A stretch of DNA of 7,858 nucleotides from positions 1 through 7,858 of IMG/VR virus record IMGVR_UViG_2850808358_000013; one strand, given 5' to 3'. Below are positions 1-7,858 of the stretch, in pieces. A program made the translations under genes and the position numbers. The number at the start of each line of letters is the position of its first letter. Position 1 is the stretch's first letter. Below the pieces are notes generated by a model, which was not told where the DNA came from, searched no databases, and saw only the letters and a program-made list of their open reading frames with translations. Origin of the DNA: a virus. Taxonomy: Duplodnaviria; Heunggongvirae; Uroviricota; Caudoviricetes.

Positions 1-939
1 TTATTTGATTTCAATTTTGTCCCACTCCCTGCCTCTGTCATCACGATACTGTGATGCCATGGTGTCCGACTTGTGCCCGAGAAGATGTTGAGCAAACTTA
101 TCGCTTATCTGCTTCTCATAGAGTCTTGCAGACAAACTGCGCAACTCGTGAAAGGTAGGTGGATCCCCTTCGAAGGAAAGACCTGATGCTTTTCGTGCGC
201 GCATAAAATACCTTGATACTGTGCCGGATGAAAGCGGTTCACGACGAGTAGATGCAATTATGGTTTCTCCGCCAAGAATCTCTTTGCATTTATCAAGTGT
301 TTCCTTCATTGATATCCCGAGAGCATCAACATGCAATGTTGTAGGGATGGCAATTTTTACGCCTGTTTTGCTTTGCTCGACATAAAGATATCCATCTACG
401 ATATCAGACCACTTCATTTCGCATAAATCACCAACTCGTTGCCCGGTAACAACAGCCAGTTCCATTGCAAGTCTGAGCCAACATGGTGATGATTCTGCTG
501 CTTGATAAATTTTCAGGTATTCGTCAGCCGTAAGTCTTGATCTCCTTACCTCTGATTTTGCTGCGCGAGTGGCAGCGACCGGGTTTGTTGTTATATGGCC
601 TTCAGCTATTGCCTCTCGGAATGCATCGCTCAGTGTTGATCTGATTAACTTGGCTGATGCCGCCTTGCCCTCGTCTATGTATCCATTGAGCATTGCCGCA
701 ATTTCTTTTGTGGTGATGTCTTCAAGTGGAGCATCAGGCAGCCCCCTCCTTATTGCTTTAATTTTGCTCATGTAATTTATGAGTGTCTTCTGCTTGATTC
801 CTCTGCTGGCGAGGATTTTTTCGTAGCGAGCAAGCCATGAATGTAACGTAACAGAATTATCACTGTTGATTCTCGCTGTCAGAGGCTTGTGTTTGTGTCC
901 TGAAAATAACTCAATGTTGGCCTGTATAGCTTCAGTGAT
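1..939 (-). pseudogene. int: Lambda-type tyrosine integrase (Int), 5'-truncated remnant; the longest ATG-initiated ORF is 1..771
   Basis: Minus-strand translation ends ...HLLGHKSDTMASQYRDDRGREWDKIEIK with the stop at 1-3, which I recognise as the C-terminus of phage lambda Int; the catalytic signatures HELR, LLGH and SQY are present. My manual translation upstream of the M at 771 continues in frame (..ITEAIQANIELFSGHKHKPLTARINSDNSVTLHSWLARYEKILASRGIKQKTLINYMSKI..) up to 939, where the frame enters the IS terminus and meets a stop (955-957). About 37 N-terminal codons and the start codon are missing. Confidence 0.9.
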
Positions 940-1003: not shown

Positions 1004-1306
1004 ATGAGCAGAAAAACCCAACGTTACTCTAAAGAGTTCAAAGCTGAAGCTGTCAGAACGGTTCTTGAAAATCAACTTTCGATCAGTGAAGGCGCTTCCC
1101 GATTATCCCTTCCTGAAGGCACTTTAGGACAATGGGTTACCGCCGCCAGAAAAGGGCTCGGTACTCCTGGTTCCCGCACGGTGGCTGAACTGGAATCTGA
1201 AATTCTGCAACTGCGTAAGGCGTTAAATGAAGCTCGCCTTGAGCGAGATATATTAAAAAAAGCAACAGCGTATTTTGCACAGGAGTCGCTGAAAAATACG
1301 CGTTAA
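1004..1306 (+). CDS. IS3-family transposase OrfA (helix-turn-helix plus leucine-zipper-like C-terminus)
   Basis: 100-aa ORF with AGGAG 6 nt upstream of the ATG; the product ends ..ERDILKKATAYFAQESLK, typical of IS3-family OrfA; the slippery run lies near its 3' end. Confidence 0.9.
   Translation: MSRKTQRYSKEFKAEAVRTVLENQLSISEGASRLSLPEGTLGQWVTAARKGLGTPGSRTVAELESEILQLRKALNEARLERDILKKATAYFAQESLKNTR
1255..1261 (+). other. Programmed -1 ribosomal frameshift site (A AAA AAA followed by G) generating the OrfAB fusion transposase
   Basis: The heptamer aaaaaaa + g at 1255-1262 sits in the orfA frame as tta-aaa-aaa-gca; the orfB frame (the frame of the ATG at 1342) is exactly -1 relative to orfA. This is the known IS3-family mechanism (established for IS911 and IS3). 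Confidence 0.6.
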
Positions 1307-1341
1307 TCGAACAATGGCGACAACAATTTCCCATTGAAGCG

Positions 1342-2160
1342 ATGTGTCAGGTATTTGGTGTATCCAGGAGCGGTTATTACAACTGGGTACAGCATGAACC
1401 CTCAGACAGAAAACAAAGTGATGAGCGGCTAAAACTGGAGATTAAGGTGGCACATATCCGCACTCGCGAAACATATGGAACCCGGCGGCTCCAGACGGAG
1501 CTGGCAGAGAATGGCATCATCGTTGGTCGTGACCGACTGGCACGTCTTCGTAAGGAGCTAAGGCTACGCTGTAAGCAGAAACGCAAGTTCAGAGCGACTA
1601 CGAACCCGAACCACAATCTGCCAGTTGCGCCAAATCTGCTGAACCAGACGTTCGCTCCTACAGCACCAAATCAGGTCTGGGTGGCGGACCTGACGTATGT
1701 TGCCACACAGGAGGGATGGTTGTACCTCGCTGGCATCAAAGATGTTTATACGTGCGAAATTGTCGGCTACGCCATGGGAGAGCGCATGACAAAAGAGCTG
1801 ACAGGTAAAGCCCTGTTTATGGCGCTCAGGAGCCAGCGCCCACCTGCCGGGCTAATCCACCACTCTGATCGAGGTTCACAGTACTGCGCATACGATTACC
1901 GGGTCATACAGGAGCAGTTTGGTCTGAAAACATCAATGTCGCGTAAAGGTAACTGTTACGACAACGCTCCGATGGAAAGCTTCTGGGGAACGCTGAAAAA
2001 TGAGAGCCTGAGCCACTATCGTTTTAATAACCGGGATGAAGCCATCTCAGTAATACGGGAATACATTGAGATTTTCTACAATCGTCAGCGTCGTCACTCT
2101 CGTCTGGGGAATATCTCCCCGGCAGCCTTCAGGGAAAAATATCATCAGATGGCTGCTTAA
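1342..2160 (+). CDS. IS3-family transposase OrfB (DDE / retroviral-integrase-like catalytic core)
   Basis: 272-aa ORF containing DDE motif elements (..VWVADLTYV.., ..HHSDRGSQY.., ..NAPMESFWGTLKNE..); it lies in the -1 frame relative to orfA. Confidence 0.9.
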   Translation: MCQVFGVSRSGYYNWVQHEPSDRKQSDERLKLEIKVAHIRTRETYGTRRLQTELAENGIIVGRDRLARLRKELRLRCKQKRKFRATTNPNHNLPVAPNLLNQTFAPTAPNQVWVADLTYVATQEGWLYLAGIKDVYTCEIVGYAMGERMTKELTGKALFMALRSQRPPAGLIHHSDRGSQYCAYDYRVIQEQFGLKTSMSRKGNCYDNAPMESFWGTLKNESLSHYRFNNRDEAISVIREYIEIFYNRQRRHSRLGNISPAAFREKYHQMAA

Positions 2161-3161: not shown

Positions 3162-3800
3162 TTAAAGATTAACGTTGAAACCAAAGCGGGAAGACTTTTC
3201 CGATGTGCGGGAAATATCCAGCAATTTACGGCGCATTTCTTCCGTCAGATGCTTGAAGGCGTTAAATTCGGCGACAGCCGCATCGACGTTATAGCCGTTA
3301 CGACGTAATTCATTAAATATGCGCATTGCAGGGCTTGGCATGTCGAATAAGACGGAGGTATCAAGCTGCAATGTATTTCTATCAACATAGTTCATCGTGG
3401 CATAGGGGTGATGCTCTGAAAACCACGATAAAGGGAAATTGATATTCATCGCAGGAGAAGACAGGGCCAGTTGTTTCTGTTCCCATAGTTGTTTTTCCAT
3501 GCGATCGAATTCAGCAATGTAGGCTTCCTTGAATGCAGCTGCTTTTTTGCCGGTGAAGCCCATCACCAGAAAAACGAAGCCGTTTTTGGTGATTTGGTAG
3601 GCGTTATAGGTATTGCCTCGGTGTTCGAATTTAACCCGCGAAAAGTTGCGGGTTAAGAATTGCTCAGAGCATTCGAGGGATTCTATTTTCTGAACAACAT
3701 GGTGATGCTGCTTGCCAAAAAACTCAGCAATCGAAATAGAAGTAGTGACGGCGCGACCATTTTCGATGGTTACGTCAGGGTGAGAAAGGGTAGTAGCCAT
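3162..3800 (-). CDS. rha: Rha-family phage regulatory protein (pRha domain; antirepressor-like)
   Basis: N-terminus MATTLSHPDVTIENGRAVTTSISIAEFFGKQHHHVVQKIESL...YQITKNGFVFLVMGFTGKKAAAFKEAYIAEFDRME matches the pRha N-terminal domain as I remember it. Start chosen at ATG 3800 (GAGGA 7 nt upstream) rather than the track's 3959; the 53-codon in-frame extension is GC-rich and low-complexity. Confidence 0.8.
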   Translation of the reverse strand: MATTLSHPDVTIENGRAVTTSISIAEFFGKQHHHVVQKIESLECSEQFLTRNFSRVKFEHRGNTYNAYQITKNGFVFLVMGFTGKKAAAFKEAYIAEFDRMEKQLWEQKQLALSSPAMNINFPLSWFSEHHPYATMNYVDRNTLQLDTSVLFDMPSPAMRIFNELRRNGYNVDAAVAEFNAFKHLTEEMRRKLLDISRTSEKSSRFGFNVNL

Positions 3801-3830
3801 AATGACATCCTCAAGTGATAAGTTAATTAA

Positions 3831-3937
3831 CTCACCACCAGAGGTGCTAATCTCATGGGTGGTGAGACGCACAGGGTTAGCACTACCGGTCACTCGAGAA
3901 CCCGGCCAGCCTTGCGGCTGCCCCGCACGCCTCACCA
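3831..3937 (-). promoter_or_regulatory. Structured 5' leader of rha with three copies of a complementary motif allowing alternative hairpins
   Basis: Plus-strand ctcaccacc (3831-3839) and ggtggtgag (3858-3866) form a perfect 9-bp stem; a third copy ctcacca (3931-3937) can alternatively pair with the middle element. cagcc-ttgc-ggctg (3907-3920) is a GCAA (GNRA) tetraloop hairpin on the minus-strand RNA. Confidence 0.4.
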
Positions 3938-3961
3938 TAATTTGAATGTGGCTGTGCATTA

Positions 3962-4043
3962 CGCATAAAAAAACCGCTTCAGCGCGGTTATGCGCTCGAG
4001 TAACTTTCGGGGTGCTAATCCCGGCACCCGTTTTATGAGGTGT
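3962..4043 (-). ncRNA. Putative small RNA (about 80 nt) between a promoter-like motif and an intrinsic terminator; hypothetical
   Basis: Minus-strand -35 TTGACT (4078-4073), 17-nt spacer, -10 TATATT (4055-4050). The predicted transcript 5'-ACACCUCAUAAAACGGGUGCCGGGAUUAGCACCCCGAAAGUUACUCGAGCGCAUAACCGCGCUGAAGCGGUUUUUUU contains a 6-bp GC hairpin (4010-4029) and the terminator hairpin; no plausible ORF. Confidence 0.25.
3967..3989 (-). terminator. Rho-independent terminator acting on minus-strand transcripts
   Basis: Minus-strand RNA AACCGC-GCUGAA-GCGGUU followed by a U-run (plus-strand A-run 3967-3973); the stem is short, so moderate strength; preceded by a second hairpin. Confidence 0.45.
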
Positions 4044-4699: not shown

Positions 4700-4954
4700 G
4701 TGGGTATGGGGAAAGCAGATAAGCTACTGGAAAAGTTTTTAAACAGTAAAAAAACGTTTGAATGGGATGAGTTGGTCGTTTTGTTTTCCTCTCTGGGATA
4801 TGTCAAAAAGGAAATGCAGGGCTCAAGAGTGCGGTTTTTCAATGCTGAAATCAACCACACCATATTAATGCATCGCCCACATCCAGAAAGTTATATTAAA
4901 GGTGGAACGCTGAAAGCGATTAAACAGAATCTGAAAGAGGCTGGGGTATTATGA
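4700..4954 (+). CDS. hicA: HicA-family toxin-like protein (YcfA/HicA fold, putative mRNA interferase); initiation may be at ATG 4706
   Basis: ..KADKLLEKFLNSKKTFEWDELVVLFSSLGY..QGSRVRFFNAEINHTILMHRPHPESYIKGGTLKAIKQNLKEAGVL fits the HicA pattern as I remember it; the stop overlaps the next start (ATGA at 4951-4954). The track start is GTG 4700. Confidence 0.7.
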   Translation: MGMGKADKLLEKFLNSKKTFEWDELVVLFSSLGYVKKEMQGSRVRFFNAEINHTILMHRPHPESYIKGGTLKAIKQNLKEAGVL

Positions 4955-5295
4955 ATCATCTAAAATATAAAGGATATTTAGGTACAGTAGAACCAGATTT
5001 TGAAAATAATATCCTGTACGGAAAACTGGCGTTTATTCGAGACCTGGTAACTTATGAGGCTTCTACATTAGCTGAACTGGAACAGGAGTTTAAGACATCG
5101 GTTGAGCTGTATTTACAGTCTTGTGTGGAGGATGGAAAGGAGCCTGATACCCCGTTTAAAGGTGTGTTTAACGTCAGACTTGATCCAGAACTGCATCGTC
5201 GGGTCGCTGAAATGGCGATGGAAGAAGATTTATCACTGAACGCCTTTGTTAATAAGGCGCTGGAAAAAGAAGTCAACCATCACACAGGGGCTTAA
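4951..5295 (+). CDS. hicB: HicB-family antitoxin-like protein with a C-terminal ribbon-helix-helix DNA-binding domain
   Basis: N-terminal YKGYLGTVEPDFENNILYGKLAFIRDL..EEPDTPF resembles HicB N-domains; C-terminal KGVFNVRLDPELHRRVAEMAMEEDLSLNAFVNKALEKEV is RHH-like; 4-bp overlap with hicA. Confidence 0.7.
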   Translation: MNHLKYKGYLGTVEPDFENNILYGKLAFIRDLVTYEASTLAELEQEFKTSVELYLQSCVEDGKEPDTPFKGVFNVRLDPELHRRVAEMAMEEDLSLNAFVNKALEKEVNHHTGA

Positions 5296-5701: not shown

Positions 5702-6421
5702 TCAATCAAAAGTCTCATCATTCCACTGCGACTTTATGACCTTTCCGACAAACGGGCAGTTTTCGTTACACTCAATCATGTCGAATCGTGGGTTGAGTGG
5801 CTCCAGGTACGCTTTACCGCTCTCACGAATGAATCGTTTGAAGGTGAATTCATCGCCATTCATTCGGGCCACGCAAAAATCGCCATCCTCAATCTCCCGC
5901 TCAGGGTCAACGAGTATCAGCATCCCTTCGGGGAAACTGGGTTTACCACCCTGCGGCGCGGTCATTGAATGCCCCTTGACCTCCAGCCAGAACGACCTGT
6001 CACTGGCTTTTGTGGTGGTGGAGATCCACTTAATCGCATCCTTTGCGGTGTACGAAAAATCATCCATTGAGAAAGCTCCAGCCTGTACGCAGGAGAGTAA
6101 CGGATATTCGTAATATTTCTCGAACAGGTTACGCCTGTTTCCCGGTGTGTGGGTACGAATACTGCGTAACAAATCACTCAGATCTGGATTAATTTCTTCC
6201 GCAGGAACCTGTAATAAAGCCGCAAACTTAAGGGTATTTTCAGTATTTAACGCAATTTTTGCGTTCAATAACTGACTAACAGCCCCCTGCGTTTTGAAGC
6301 CGAGGATATCTGCGGCTTTTTCCTGGCTTAGGGATAGCTGTTTCCGTTTTTCATCCCAGATTTTGCGCAGTCGTTCAGCGTTCTGGATGTCTTTGTCAGT
6401 AATTGTAATTTTCTTCGTCAT
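5702..6421 (-). CDS. cI: Lambda cI-like prophage repressor (N-terminal HTH, C-terminal LexA/S24 autopeptidase domain)
   Basis: The C-terminal half is nearly colinear with lambda cI as I recall it (..[16 protein letters not shown].., ..[30 protein letters not shown].., ..[13 protein letters not shown].., ..[14 protein letters not shown]); Ala-Gly cleavage site, Ser (GHSM) and Lys (FKRF) all present. Start set at ATG 6421 (GGAGG 4 nt upstream) rather than the track's 6460. Confidence 0.9.
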
Positions 6422-6472
6422 AGTGCCTCCAATTTTATTAGCAACACAAATATTTATCAAATAGCTGGCCTG

Positions 6473-6500
6473 TTGACATTTAAATCAGGTAAGCTAATAT
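6473..6500 (+). promoter_or_regulatory. pR-like sigma70 promoter for the cro-like gene (TTGACA-16-TAATAT) in the divergent repressor/cro intergenic region
   Basis: ttgaca at 6473-6478 and taatat at 6495-6500; GGGAGG 6 nt before the ATG at 6527; the palindrome atttaaat lies in the spacer. The leftward repressor promoter and the operators were not resolved. Confidence 0.5.
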
Positions 6501-6526
6501 CGGAAAATTGAAATGGGAGGATCTCT

Positions 6527-6766
6527 ATGACTCTTGACGAGTACTTGAGACAAAGCTCTATCAGACAAGCCGATTTTGCGGCGATTGTTGGAGTTTCTCA
6601 GGGATTTGTCAGTGGGGTTATTACAGGGAGATACATGCCTCAGGGGCGGAAAGCCATTGAATGGGCAAAAGCTACAGACTGGAATGTAACTCCCCATGAA
6701 CTAAACCCGCATGACTACCTAAACATGGAAGATGGTATTCCGCTTCATGTAAGGCAAACAGCCTGA
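6527..6766 (+). CDS. Cro / YdaS-like small HTH regulator (79 aa)
   Basis: Divergent from the repressor gene with a strong SD; ..IRQADFAAIVGVSQGFVSGVITGRYMPQGRKAIEWAKATDWNVTPHELNPHDY fits the Cro/YdaS-type HTH pattern as I remember it. Confidence 0.7.
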   Translation: MTLDEYLRQSSIRQADFAAIVGVSQGFVSGVITGRYMPQGRKAIEWAKATDWNVTPHELNPHDYLNMEDGIPLHVRQTA

Positions 6767-6770
6767 TAAC

Positions 6771-6783
6771 CCTCCATCGGAGG
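6771..6783 (+). promoter_or_regulatory. Hairpin that pairs the Shine-Dalgarno sequence of the downstream ORF with an anti-SD
   Basis: cctcc-atc-ggagg: a perfect 5-bp stem whose 3' arm GGAGG is the SD located 5 nt upstream of the GTG start at 6789; it begins 5 nt after the cro-like stop. Confidence 0.4.
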
Positions 6784-6788
6784 TGTGA

Positions 6789-7070
6789 GTGAACAGGCAA
6801 ATCAAAACGGTTATGCCCGATCAGTACTGTGATGCTGATCGGGACTGGATACAGGAGCAATTGTTACAGCTAGACCCGACCACCAGGGTAAAAATTGCAG
6901 CAGAGTACGCGAGAGTGTACCAGGAAGAGTGGGACAAGGAGCCTGTATCGTTCAGGAAGGGCAACAGGGCAAGACGGAGCGCCAACACCCGGTTACGGGT
7001 GTATGTCCAGAAGTACGCGAGAGCCAGCCGTGGCTGGATGTTTTCGCCAGTAGCGATACGGAAGGAATAG
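6789..7070 (+). CDS. Hypothetical protein (93 aa; GTG start) in the position of cII / early-right genes; basic C-terminal half
   Basis: ORF directly downstream of the cro-like gene with GGAGG at -5; product ..DRDWIQEQLLQLDPTTRVKIAAEYARVYQEEWDKEP..RKGNRARRSANTRLRVYVQKYARASRGW..; no family recognised. An alternative ATG lies at 6813. Confidence 0.5.
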   Translation: MNRQIKTVMPDQYCDADRDWIQEQLLQLDPTTRVKIAAEYARVYQEEWDKEPVSFRKGNRARRSANTRLRVYVQKYARASRGWMFSPVAIRKE

Positions 7071-7096
7071 ATCTCATCAAGGTTATTATTTTTTTG

Positions 7097-7141
7097 TGAA
7101 ATGATTTCGCATGAAATCATTGCGCTTGAAATTTTACTAAG
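7097..7141. repeat. Three TGAAAT motifs at exact 15-bp spacing, with an embedded 9-bp inverted repeat
   Basis: TGAAAT at 7097, 7112 and 7127; units 1 and 2 match at 12 of 15 positions; inverted repeat aatgatttc (7100-7108) / gaaatcatt (7113-7121) with a 4-nt spacer; preceded by a T7 run and followed by tandem AAGGGGGT / AAGGGGGC (7142-7157). Confidence 0.45.
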
Positions 7142-7307
7142 AAGGGGGTAAGGGGGCAGATCTGTAACATCCGTGCCTGTAAGGGCACTACCAGAGGAAG
7201 GCAGCTCCATAGGTTAGGTAGATCACTGTATAGGGTGAGATGGTTTCTGACGAAATTGTTATTATGCTAACCATTACGGTAGAAATAGTACCATACTCAT
7301 CAAACAT

Positions 7308-7483
7308 GTGGTTATCAGCCTGCTCGGAAACAAATTCTACACCGGAAAAGACAAGGTCACGTTTGATTATGTGCTGGCTGCCAAATTGCGTGATGCCGGA
7401 CTGGCGATCGAACGTAATTATCTGGTTGATATGGCAACGGTAAGCGCGGATTCGTCGATATCATGGTCGTTGCCCCATCTGGT
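7308..7483 (+). pseudogene. Fragment of an unidentified gene, 3'-truncated by the IS911 insertion
   Basis: Protein-like frame ..GNKFYTGKDKVTFDYVLAAKLRDAGLAIERNYLVDMATVSADSSISWSLPHL runs straight into the IS terminus at 7484; the final residues and stop of the track ORF are encoded by the IS end. No convincing start or RBS (GTG at 7308 only). Confidence 0.35.

Positions 7484-7858
<375 letters not shown>

What the first reader, a model, noticed from the sequence alone, without database searches (positions are those of the whole stretch)
7071..7307. Repeat-rich non-coding stretch: 15-bp-phased TGAAAT motifs, an inverted repeat, tandem AAGGGGG units and further hairpins
Three TGAAAT motifs at exactly 15-bp intervals (7097, 7112, 7127) overlap a 9-bp inverted repeat, preceded by a T7 run and followed by AAGGGGGT-AAGGGGGC (7142-7157) and a gtgcc-tgtaag-ggcac hairpin (7173-7188). 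The only ORFs across it are antisense or other-frame and look spurious. Phased direct repeats next to A/T runs resemble iterons of a replication origin or a multi-site operator. This may be the replication or regulatory centre of the module, whose cognate protein could be the upstream 93-aa ORF or the gene destroyed by IS911.
Basis: seen in the sequence. Interest (0 to 1): 0.5.

Follow-up and report, generated by a model that had tools for sequence, protein, structure and literature searches.

The report
Relic origin-like element of helicase–primase prophage
The repeat-rich stretch is real, non-coding and belongs to a previously undescribed conserved DNA element that sits in front of the helicase–primase replication genes of 'Eru1'/Fels-1-type prophages (including major Shiga-toxin phages), most likely their replication origin, here left as a dead relic next to an IS911 insertion.

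Summary

The window is a decayed Eru1/Fels-1-type lambdoid prophage. In intact relatives the same ~220-nt stretch is non-coding. It lies between a 93-aa gene (phrog_852) and an SF2 helicase plus Toprim primase.

- **Shallow features:** the TGAAAT phasing and the 9-bp inverted repeat are conserved only in close E. coli relatives. They are one lineage's version of a hairpin upstream of the G-run box.
- **Deep features:** The G-runs extend to Xenorhabdus, Serratia and Brenneria.
- **Strand-specific structure:** hairpins keep pairing through G·U changes on the gene strand only.
- **Natural swap:** of 104 distinct loci, 99 carry the element. The other five have classical iterons plus a RepL-like initiator gene in its place, upstream of the same helicase family.

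Best reading (about 0.55): an initiator-less, probably transcription-activated, replication origin. Main rival: a structured regulatory RNA leader. Neither neighbouring protein looks like a cognate binder. No Rfam family or paper describes it.

The parts
6473..6500 (+). PR-like sigma-70 promoter (TTGACA-16-TAATAT) whose transcript would run through cro, the 93-aa gene and the element (context)
   Evidence: Promoter scan, 10 of 12 matches. It lies between the cI-like repressor (5702-6460, minus strand; Peptidase_S24 + HTH_3) and cro (6527-6766; HTH_3).
6789..7070 (+). 93-aa gene (phrog_852, function unknown). It is the constant upstream neighbour of the element but not specific to it.
7080..7139 (.). 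A+T-rich segment (GC 27%) holding the T7 run (7089-7095) and the three TGAAAT motifs (7097, 7112, 7127)
   Evidence: Composition profile; pattern search gave 0 of 200 shuffles. Conserved only in type A relatives.
7096..7125 (+). 'el.1' hairpin. Core arms are 7100-7108 / 7113-7121 with loop GCAT; up to 13 bp in relatives.
   Evidence: Pair counts on 22 sequences show an A-U / G-C compensatory pair and G·U variants. Most lineages have a hairpin or imperfect palindrome in the 75 nt upstream of the G-run box, with different sequence. G·U to A·C ratio is 121:23, against about 87:59 in shuffles.
7142..7157 (+). G-run box AAGGGGGT-AAGGGGGC, on the non-template strand for rightward transcription
   Evidence: G4+ N1-4 G4+ is present in 99 of 104 distinct loci. 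Flanks average 79% purine and GC skew +0.80. 37 of 83 have a canonical G-quadruplex motif, none on the C strand.
7173..7188 (+). Small G+C hairpin GTGCC-TGTAAG-GGCAC (GTGCCC-GTAA-GGGCAC in relatives)
   Evidence: Other lineages carry a different small hairpin at this position, for example AGCGC-GAA-GCGCT or AGTGC-GAA-GCACT.
7189..7235 (.). Conserved core. CTACCAGAGG... is the counterpart of CTTTTCCAACAG in relatives. It is followed by the box CATAGGTTAGGTAGATCACTGTATAGGG (7208-7235), which includes GATC 7221-7224.
   Evidence: Invariant block. The exact pattern AGGTTARGTAGATCNCNGTA was found in 67 viral contigs. It is conserved as primary sequence with no consensus pairing. One copy per locus.
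7239..7275 (+). 'el.2' hairpin. The outer stem is GATGGTT / AACCATT (7239-7245 / 7269-7275). An inner TTTC-TGAC-GAAA lies at 7244-7255, with a fourth GAAAT at 7252-7256.
   Evidence: The outer stem pairs in 100% of cells in 22 type A and type B sequences, with G-C / A-U / G·U variation and never A·C. The Salmonella version is ATGGTTTCTT / AAGAAACTAT.
7070..7073 (.). GATC (Dam) site 1. Sites 2 and 3 are at 7159-7162 and 7221-7224.
   Evidence: Sequence. GATC averages 1.64 per 120-nt core against 0.39 in shuffles. It is the most over-represented of the 16 palindromic tetranucleotides tested (about 4-fold; GTAC and TTAA are under 2-fold). 87 of 88 cores have at least one.
7293..7483 (+). Remnant of the small restriction-endonuclease-like gene (phrog_1347; 128 aa when intact). 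The start codon is ATG->ATA (7293-7295), one G is lost in the run at 7433-7434, and it is truncated by IS911.
   Evidence: Alignment with E2855. PHROG hit 2e-50, with weak REase_MTES_1575 and PD-(D/E)xK-like hints. The domain also occurs C-terminal to Phage_rep_O domains in other proteins.
7484..7858 (+).
Evidence: Homology to intact prophages ends at 7483. The ORF at 7520-7858 is a Transposase HTH_Tnp_1.

Best explanation
The stretch is the cis-acting origin region of an 'Eru1'/Fels-1-type replication module (SF2 RadD/UvsW-like helicase plus Zn-ribbon/Toprim primase).

Its anatomy, 5' to 3' on the gene strand:
1. An A+T-rich segment with a lineage-specific hairpin. The TGAAAT motifs and the 9-bp inverted repeat are this hairpin.
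2. Two G-runs.
3. A small G+C hairpin.
4. A roughly 45-nt core conserved as primary sequence, ending in CATAGGTTAGGTAGATC, with Dam sites.
5. A second hairpin.

Proposed mechanism (inferred, not shown): the module has no double-strand origin-binding initiator. Rightward transcription from PR through the purine/G-rich tract makes the region single-stranded, as a persistent RNA:DNA hybrid or R-loop and/or a folded leader. Gene-strand hairpins and the conserved core then give the phage helicase and primase their entry point.

What is shown: conservation, synteny, single copy, strand-specific pairing, and replacement of the element by an iteron-plus-initiator cassette in sibling phages.
For: **Synteny**
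- cI, cro, phrog_852, ~200-430 nt non-coding, [optional gene], helicase, primase. This order holds in E. coli, Salmonella (including Fels-1), Klebsiella, Yersinia, Serratia, Xenorhabdus and Brenneria.

**Natural swap**
- Of 104 distinct loci, 99 carry the G-run element.
- The five without it carry iteron arrays in the same slot. L179 has GGAACAGTTTGTTCC four times, with 22-bp spacing within two pairs.
- Those five also carry a RepL-like winged-helix initiator (PF05732, 26-27 bits against a cut-off of 20.3), followed by the same helicase family.

**Independence from the downstream start codon**
- Homing-endonuclease-like or restriction-endonuclease-like genes are inserted between the element and the helicase in some lineages.

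**Copy number and rival sites**
- One copy per locus, including 24 kb of the TL-2011c early region.
- No other repeat array in the replication genes.

**Origin-like composition**
- A 27% GC segment lies next to a tract with GC skew +0.8 and 79% purine. GATC is enriched 4-fold.

**Gene-strand-specific structure**
- H0 hairpin in relatives: 7 of 8 pairs are compensatory, 0 of 500 shuffles reach the observed score, and G·U to A·C is 44:4.
- el.1 region: G·U to A·C is 121:23.
- el.2 stem: 100% paired.

**Missing initiator and literature gap**
- The helicase is RadD/UvsW-like, not a hexameric replicative helicase, and no O- or P-type protein is present.
- Published Eru work names no origin.
Against: - No experiment bears on it, and function is inferred from position and comparative patterns only.
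- Pairing that tolerates G·U on one strand is most simply explained by an RNA. That fits a regulatory leader as well as a transcribed origin.
- I saw no DnaA-box or IHF-site match by eye, and no consensus scan was run.
- The A+T-rich segment is short (about 60 bp).
- Folding energies are not clearly better than shuffles for the window itself: plus strand z = -0.85, minus strand z = -1.57, with composition-only shuffles.
- The swap could instead reflect acquisition of a foreign replicon cassette that displaced a leader. The true origin of the standard module might lie elsewhere.
- The R-loop step is analogy, not evidence.
Confidence: 0.55

Rival explanations
1. It is a structured cis-regulatory RNA leader of the replication-gene transcript and not an origin. 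It would control processing, stability, termination or read-through, or expression of the helicase-primase genes.
For: - Conserved pairing is on the gene strand only, with many G·U and few A·C.
- Relatives carry hairpins with a conserved loop (UUAAAGGU) and covarying stems.
- The element always has the same orientation and lies downstream of PR.
Against: - It travels with the helicase-primase module. It is replaced by iterons plus an initiator rather than simply lost.
- Genes inserted between it and the helicase argue against control of translation start.
- The core is conserved as sequence, not structure.
- The GATC enrichment has no RNA rationale.
- It is single-copy, unlike nut and put sites.
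- No Rfam family matches it.
- The terminator scan of 6400-7520 found no terminator-like site inside the stretch, so no termination-type expression platform is evident in the window.
Confidence: 0.25
2. One reading: the phased TGAAAT repeats are iterons or operator sites bound by the upstream 93-aa protein or by the small protein whose gene IS911 destroyed.
For: - The phased motif is non-random.
- Lineage-specific short motifs recur on both sides of the core in direct and inverted orientation, for example TTTAGACGTC or CTAGTACAT in other groups.
- The small protein's domain is fused to Phage_rep_O domains elsewhere.
Against: - The phasing is not conserved beyond close relatives.
- 15 bp is not an integral number of helical turns.
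- phrog_852 is 76-81% identical between lineages with unrelated repeats, and it also precedes RepL/iteron modules.
- The small gene is dispensable for the module.
- No helicase segment co-varies with the repeat families.
- The G·U bias points to single-strand pairing rather than duplex protein sites.
Confidence: 0.08
3. It is an independent small-RNA gene, or an antisense RNA analogous to lambda oop, lying between the cII-position gene and the replication genes.
For: Its position resembles that of the lambda oop/Po region. It contains several hairpins.
Against: - The scan found no promoter-like site inside the stretch on either strand, and the only terminator-like sites (plus strand, 7022-7037) lie just upstream of it inside the 93-aa gene.
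- Structure signals are on the plus strand, not antisense.
- No Rfam match.
Confidence: 0.05
4. It is non-functional: decayed coding sequence or chance repeats in a dead prophage.
For: The window's prophage is degraded: two IS elements, a mutated start codon and a frameshift in the next gene.
Against: Sequence blocks are conserved across genera whose flanking proteins are only 40-60% identical. Pairing covaries. The stretch is non-coding in intact, inducible phages.
Confidence: 0.02

Closest known systems
Iteron-type phage and plasmid origins (lambda ori with O protein; RepL-type replicons)
   Same: It is a cis element placed at the head of the replication module, with an A+T-rich segment and short repeated motifs. 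In five sibling loci the same slot holds true iterons plus a RepL-like initiator.
   Different: The standard module has no initiator gene. The repeats are arms of hairpins, are not conserved, and are phased at 15 bp. No Phage_rep_O protein is present. The conserved parts are G-runs and a unique roughly 45-nt core.
Transcript-dependent (R-loop) origins: ColE1 RNA II pre-primer, T4 oriF/oriG, mitochondrial CSB II (from established knowledge, not tested here)
   Same: It lies downstream of a strong early promoter. G-runs sit on the non-template strand. Structured gene-strand hairpins surround them. No origin-binding initiator is present. The accessory SF2 helicase is related to UvsW and RadD.
   Different: There is no sequence similarity. 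There is no evidence for a persistent hybrid, RNase H processing or an RNA-DNA transition point. The phage brings its own primase.
IncQ (RSF1010) oriV with ssiA/ssiB hairpins used by the plasmid's own helicase and primase (from established knowledge)
   Same: The replicon encodes its own helicase and primase, and strand-specific hairpins lie in the origin region.
   Different: The helicase and primase families differ. There are no RepC-type iterons. Hairpin evidence here is for one strand only.
RNA antitermination sites of lambdoid phages (lambda nut boxA/boxB; HK022 put)
   Same: Stem-loops lie in the early rightward transcript of lambdoid phages. Eru1 phages are reported to lack N (PMC8044961).
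   Different: It is a single copy with no left-operon twin. It is tied to the replication module rather than to the operon. I saw no boxA-like sequence by eye. No Rfam match.

Membership tests
Lambda-type origin (ori-lambda) | Four or more direct ~18-19-bp iterons with internal dyad symmetry | tested here: not met
   There are only three 6-bp motifs in 15-bp phase. Two of them are the arms of one inverted repeat. The pattern is not conserved outside type A.
Lambda-type origin (ori-lambda) | Lies within or next to a gene for an O-type initiator (Phage_rep_O) | tested here: not met
   None of the seven window or E2855/phi346 proteins scanned (cro, the 93-aa protein, the small protein in both types, helicase, primase, DUF1367 protein) has a Phage_rep_O hit.
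Lambda-type origin (ori-lambda) | Adjacent A+T-rich unwinding region | tested here: met
   GC is 0.27 at 7080-7139.
Iteron origin with cognate initiator (general) | Repeat sequence co-varies with a neighbouring DNA-binding initiator | tested here: not met
   phrog_852, the helicase and the primase do not track the three repeat families. The small gene is optional. True iteron/RepL variants exist as a contrast.
R-loop / transcript-primed origin (ColE1-like) | Transcription from an upstream promoter runs through the origin | tested here: inconclusive
   A PR-like promoter lies at 6473-6500 on the same strand. The only terminator-like site between is weak, at 7022-7046. No transcript data exist.
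R-loop / transcript-primed origin (ColE1-like) | G-rich RNA segment opposite a C-rich template | tested here: met
   G-runs lie on the non-template strand in 99 of 104 loci, with GC skew +0.80.
R-loop / transcript-primed origin (ColE1-like) | Persistent RNA:DNA hybrid that is processed to a primer | not testable with these tools
   Needs S9.6/DRIP, RNase H genetics and 5'-end mapping of nascent DNA.
IncQ-type oriV | Two single-strand initiation hairpins on opposite strands | tested here: not met
   Pairing bias favours the plus strand upstream and in el.2 of types A and B. A minus-strand trend in pooled el.2 regions rests on single polymorphisms.
Lambda nut / HK022 put antitermination sites | Copies in both early operons | tested here: not met
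   There is one hit per locus, including 24 kb of TL-2011c.
Any curated RNA family (Rfam 15) | Covariance-model match | tested here: not met
   No hit at E<=1 over 7071-7307, nor over the element in four relatives.

The most novel reading that the evidence does not exclude
A family of temperate enterobacterial phages, including the Stx2a phages of the 2011 O104:H4 and 2006 O103:H25 outbreaks, starts replication without any origin-binding initiator protein. Instead, a structured, G-tract-containing transcript or R-loop made from PR, together with a conserved ~45-nt core, does the job that iterons plus a RepL-like protein do in sibling phages. Replication would then be wired directly to early transcription. 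That could explain the reported lysogenic instability of Eru1 phages.
Probability: 0.3. Interest if true: 0.8.

Novelty: new variant of a known kind. Interest (0 to 1): 0.6.

Why it matters
Eru1-type Stx phages are associated with highly virulent EHEC. They were reported to be far less stable as lysogens than lambdoid Stx phages, with the difference attributed to the replication region (PMC8044961). That work and its follow-up name the helicase, primase and DUF1367 genes but no origin or initiation mechanism.

This analysis gives three things:
- A concrete, conserved candidate cis element with defined sub-parts that can be mutated.
- A natural control, the RepL/iteron swap variants.
- A link between the Stx phages and Fels-1 and many Klebsiella, Yersinia, Salmonella and Xenorhabdus prophages.

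If the initiator-less, transcription-coupled model holds, it offers a mechanistic route from de-repression to phage copy number and toxin dose.

For the window itself the element is only a fossil. The replicon is dead.

Tried and rejected
- **Rfam:** cmscan at E<=1 on the window and four relatives found nothing at the element.
- **Literature:** searches for Eru origins and for the exact motifs found no description.
- **Whole-region folding energies:** z-scores were inconsistent between strands and lineages, so they were not used as evidence. An earlier script timed out.
- **RNAalifold:** on types A+B it gave a weak consensus of -18.6 kcal/mol. On the cross-group core it found no pairs.
- **Long-range closing stem between el.1 and el.2:** supported in Xenorhabdus. 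It is contradicted in group F, where the flanking motifs are direct repeats, so I dropped it as a general model.
- **Protein co-variation with repeat families:** none found for phrog_852, the helicase or the primase.
- **RfaH ops / JUMPStart resemblance of the G-run box:** rejected by inspection, because the C3:G8 pair of ops is absent.
- **Extra cI/cro operator:** no shared motif with 6420-6540.
- **Second, nutL-like copy:** none.
- **Minus-strand structure in el.2:** the apparent A·C excess comes from one or two polymorphisms in near-identical sequences.
- **Word-indexed homologue search with the small protein:** found only close relatives. The first alignment was too diverse for locus retrieval.

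Full report
**1. Observation.**
- TGAAAT lies at 7097, 7112 and 7127, and a T7 run at 7089-7095.
- A perfect 9-bp inverted repeat lies at 7100-7108 / 7113-7121.
- AAGGGGGT-AAGGGGGC lies at 7142-7157, and GTGCC-TGTAAG-GGCAC at 7173-7188.
- The phased TGAAAT pattern was seen in 0 of 200 dinucleotide-preserving shuffles.
- The G-run unit was expected 0.02 times.
- TGAAAT copies 1 and 2 are the 5' ends of the two arms of the inverted repeat, not independent direct repeats.

**2. Context.** The window is a decayed lambdoid prophage. In order it contains:
- an integrase (1-771, minus strand);
- an IS3-family element;
- a Rha/Ash-type gene with C4 and IsrK RNAs;
- HicAB;
- a cI-like repressor (5702-6460, minus strand);
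- a PR-like promoter (6473-6500);
- cro (6527-6766);
- a 93-aa gene of family phrog_852 (6789-7070);
- the non-coding stretch;

In intact relatives the order continues. It runs: small 125-128-aa gene, DEAD/DEAH SF2 helicase, Zn-ribbon/DUF7146/Toprim primase, DUF1367/NinB, NinG, NinH, Q, then in some cases stx2. This is the 'Eru1' replication unit of Llarena et al. 2021 (PMC8044961). That paper and its 2022 sequel name no origin. Salmonella phage Fels-1 has the same module. In the window the small gene has ATG->ATA at 7293, has lost one G at 7433-7434, and is truncated by the IS.

**3. The stretch is non-coding and conserved in a layered way.**
- No record annotates a gene across it, and alignments contain 1-, 2- and 4-nt indels.
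- Close 'type A' E. coli relatives keep the TGAAAT phasing and the inverted repeat. 'Type B' phages (TL-2011c, phi346 and others) keep only part of it.
- Types A and B are 93-99% identical in phrog_852, helicase and primase. They are only about 38% identical in the small gene.
- Loci were retrieved in five ways: through the small protein, by an exact-pattern scan, by protein look-ups, by a metagenome scan with phrog_852, and by DNA-similarity searches of plasmid and phage records. Together they gave 115 distinct versions from E. coli, Salmonella, Klebsiella, Yersinia, Serratia, Xenorhabdus, Brenneria and metagenomes.

**4. Shared anatomy across these versions.** From 5' to 3' on the gene strand:
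- In many groups, one to three hairpins with loop TTAAAGGT. These are degenerate in the window.
- An A+T-rich lineage-specific hairpin or palindrome ('el.1'). The window's TGAAAT/inverted-repeat unit is one version.
- A box of two or more G-runs.
- A small G+C hairpin.
- A core conserved as primary sequence: CTTTTCCAACAG, then 6-8 nt, then CATAGGTTARGTAGATC. The window's copy is at 7189-7235.
- A second lineage-specific hairpin ('el.2'), at 7239-7275 in the window.

There is one copy per locus, including 24 kb of the TL-2011c early region. The replication genes contain no other repeat array. No Rfam family matches.

**5. Structure signals are on the gene strand.**
- *TTAAAGGT-loop hairpin.* Across 41 distinct versions, 7 of 8 pairs show compensatory change. 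85.7% of cells pair, against 69.8% in shuffles (0 of 500 reach this). Sliding the partner columns collapses the signal. G·U outnumbers A·C by 44 to 4.
- *The 75 nt upstream of the G-runs.* The best hairpins give G·U to A·C of 121:23, against about 87:59 in shuffles.
- *The window's el.2 outer stem (7239-7245 / 7269-7275).* It pairs in every one of 22 type A and B sequences. It varies through G-C, A-U and G·U, and never A·C. Salmonella has a longer stem in the same place.
- *The core.* It has no consensus pairing.
- *Whole-region folding energies* were not informative.

**6. DNA-level signals.**
- GC falls to 27% at 7080-7139.
- The G-run region averages 79% purine and GC skew +0.80. 37 of 83 versions have a canonical G-quadruplex motif, and none has one on the C strand.
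- GATC is 4-fold enriched in the core. It is the most over-represented palindromic tetranucleotide of the 16 tested, and 87 of 88 cores have at least one. The window has GATC at 7070, 7159 and 7221.

**7. Which gene does the element belong to?**
- phrog_852 is always upstream. However, it is 76-81% identical between lineages whose flanking repeats are unrelated. Its model is an uninformative three-helix bundle.
- The gene between element and helicase is optional. It is the small restriction-endonuclease-like gene in some groups. It is an HNH/NUMOD4 homing-endonuclease-like gene in others. In groups C and D it is absent.
- The decisive comparison is. Of 104 distinct loci with at least 1.3 kb downstream of phrog_852, 99 have the G-run element.
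- The other five (L135, L136, L138, L144, L179) have classical iterons in the same slot. L179 has GGAACAGTTTGTTCC four times, with 22-bp spacing within two pairs.
- Those five also carry a RepL-like winged-helix initiator gene, followed by the same helicase family.
- The element and an iteron-plus-initiator cassette are therefore alternative occupants of one position in one module.

**8. Interpretation.** The best-supported reading is that the stretch is the origin region of this helicase-primase module, of a kind that lacks a dedicated origin-binding protein.
- The helicase is closest to RadD and distantly to UvsW. These are accessory, not hexameric, helicases, and there is no O- or P-type protein.
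- G-runs on the non-template strand downstream of PR, together with gene-strand-only pairing, fit an origin opened by transcription, as an R-loop and/or a folded transcript or displaced strand. This step rests on analogy with ColE1 RNA II, T4 oriF/oriG and mitochondrial CSB II. It is inference.
- The main rival is a structured regulatory RNA leader. It explains the strand bias equally well. It explains less well the module swap, the tolerated gene insertions, the sequence-conserved core and the GATC enrichment.

**9. Verdict.**
- Observation: confirmed.
The ori-like role is right. The identification of the iterons and of the cognate proteins is wrong.
- The element appears undescribed. I rate it a new variant of a known kind.
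- In this window it is a relic of a dead replicon. Its interest lies in the family it reveals.

Noticed in passing
window 3855-3942 (-) and 3967-4043 (-): Rfam hits to C4 antisense RNA (78.6 bits) and IsrK (61.6 bits), both above gathering score. They lie just upstream of, and overlapping, the 5' end of a Rha/Ash-type gene (3162-3959, minus strand). This is a P1 immI-like / anti-Q-type control unit.
   Followed up: partly
window 4700-5295 (+): A HicA toxin / HicB antitoxin pair (Pfam 45 and 71 bits) lies in the slot where related phages carry a BsuBI/PstI-type restriction-modification system.
   Followed up: partly
loci L052-L114, L118, L154, L193 etc.; first ~120 nt after the phrog_852 stop codon: There are one to three tandem hairpins with an almost invariant loop TTAAAGGT and strongly covarying stems, with many G·U pairs on the gene strand. 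They are absent or degenerate in the window (remnant TCAAGGT at 7076-7082). Their partner (a protein or another RNA) is unknown.
   Followed up: yes
L135, L136, L138, L144, L179 (metagenome contigs): These are variant modules. Iteron arrays plus a RepL-like initiator gene replace the G-run/box element upstream of the same SF2 helicase family.
   Followed up: yes
L095, L089, L118, L119, L200: An HNH/NUMOD4 homing-endonuclease-like gene sits between the element and the helicase, where E. coli and Salmonella have the small restriction-endonuclease-like gene. The site looks like a hotspot for selfish-nuclease insertion.
   Followed up: partly
proteins P0014, P0016, P0019, P0023: The domain of the small gene cut by IS911 (phrog_1347) also occurs C-terminal to a Phage_rep_O origin-binding domain in 390-494-aa proteins. 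This hints that it has a replication-related partner function rather than being only a nuclease.
   Followed up: partly
window 7022-7046 (+): A weak terminator-like hairpin (CCAGCC-GTGG-CTGG followed by ATGTTTTCGC) lies inside the 3' end of the 93-aa gene, just upstream of the element.
   Followed up: no
NC_019442.1 (TL-2011c) 18632-19162 = L115 12633-13163: The RefSeq record of the Eru1 type phage annotates nothing between cro and gp29. The phrog_852 gene is therefore missed there as well as the non-coding element.
   Followed up: partly
plasmid records NZ_CP076549.1, NZ_LR890473.1, NZ_AP024758.1 and others (37-42 kb, Klebsiella): Records filed as non-mobilizable plasmids carry this phage module (cI, cro, phrog_852, element, helicase, primase, Q, lysis genes). 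They look like circular or linear phage genomes or phage-plasmids.
   Followed up: partly
window 1004-2160 (+): A second IS (IS3 family; orfA is Transposase HTH_Tnp_1, and orfB has 272 aa) lies next to the integrase gene. The prophage is interrupted at both ends of the window.
   Followed up: no
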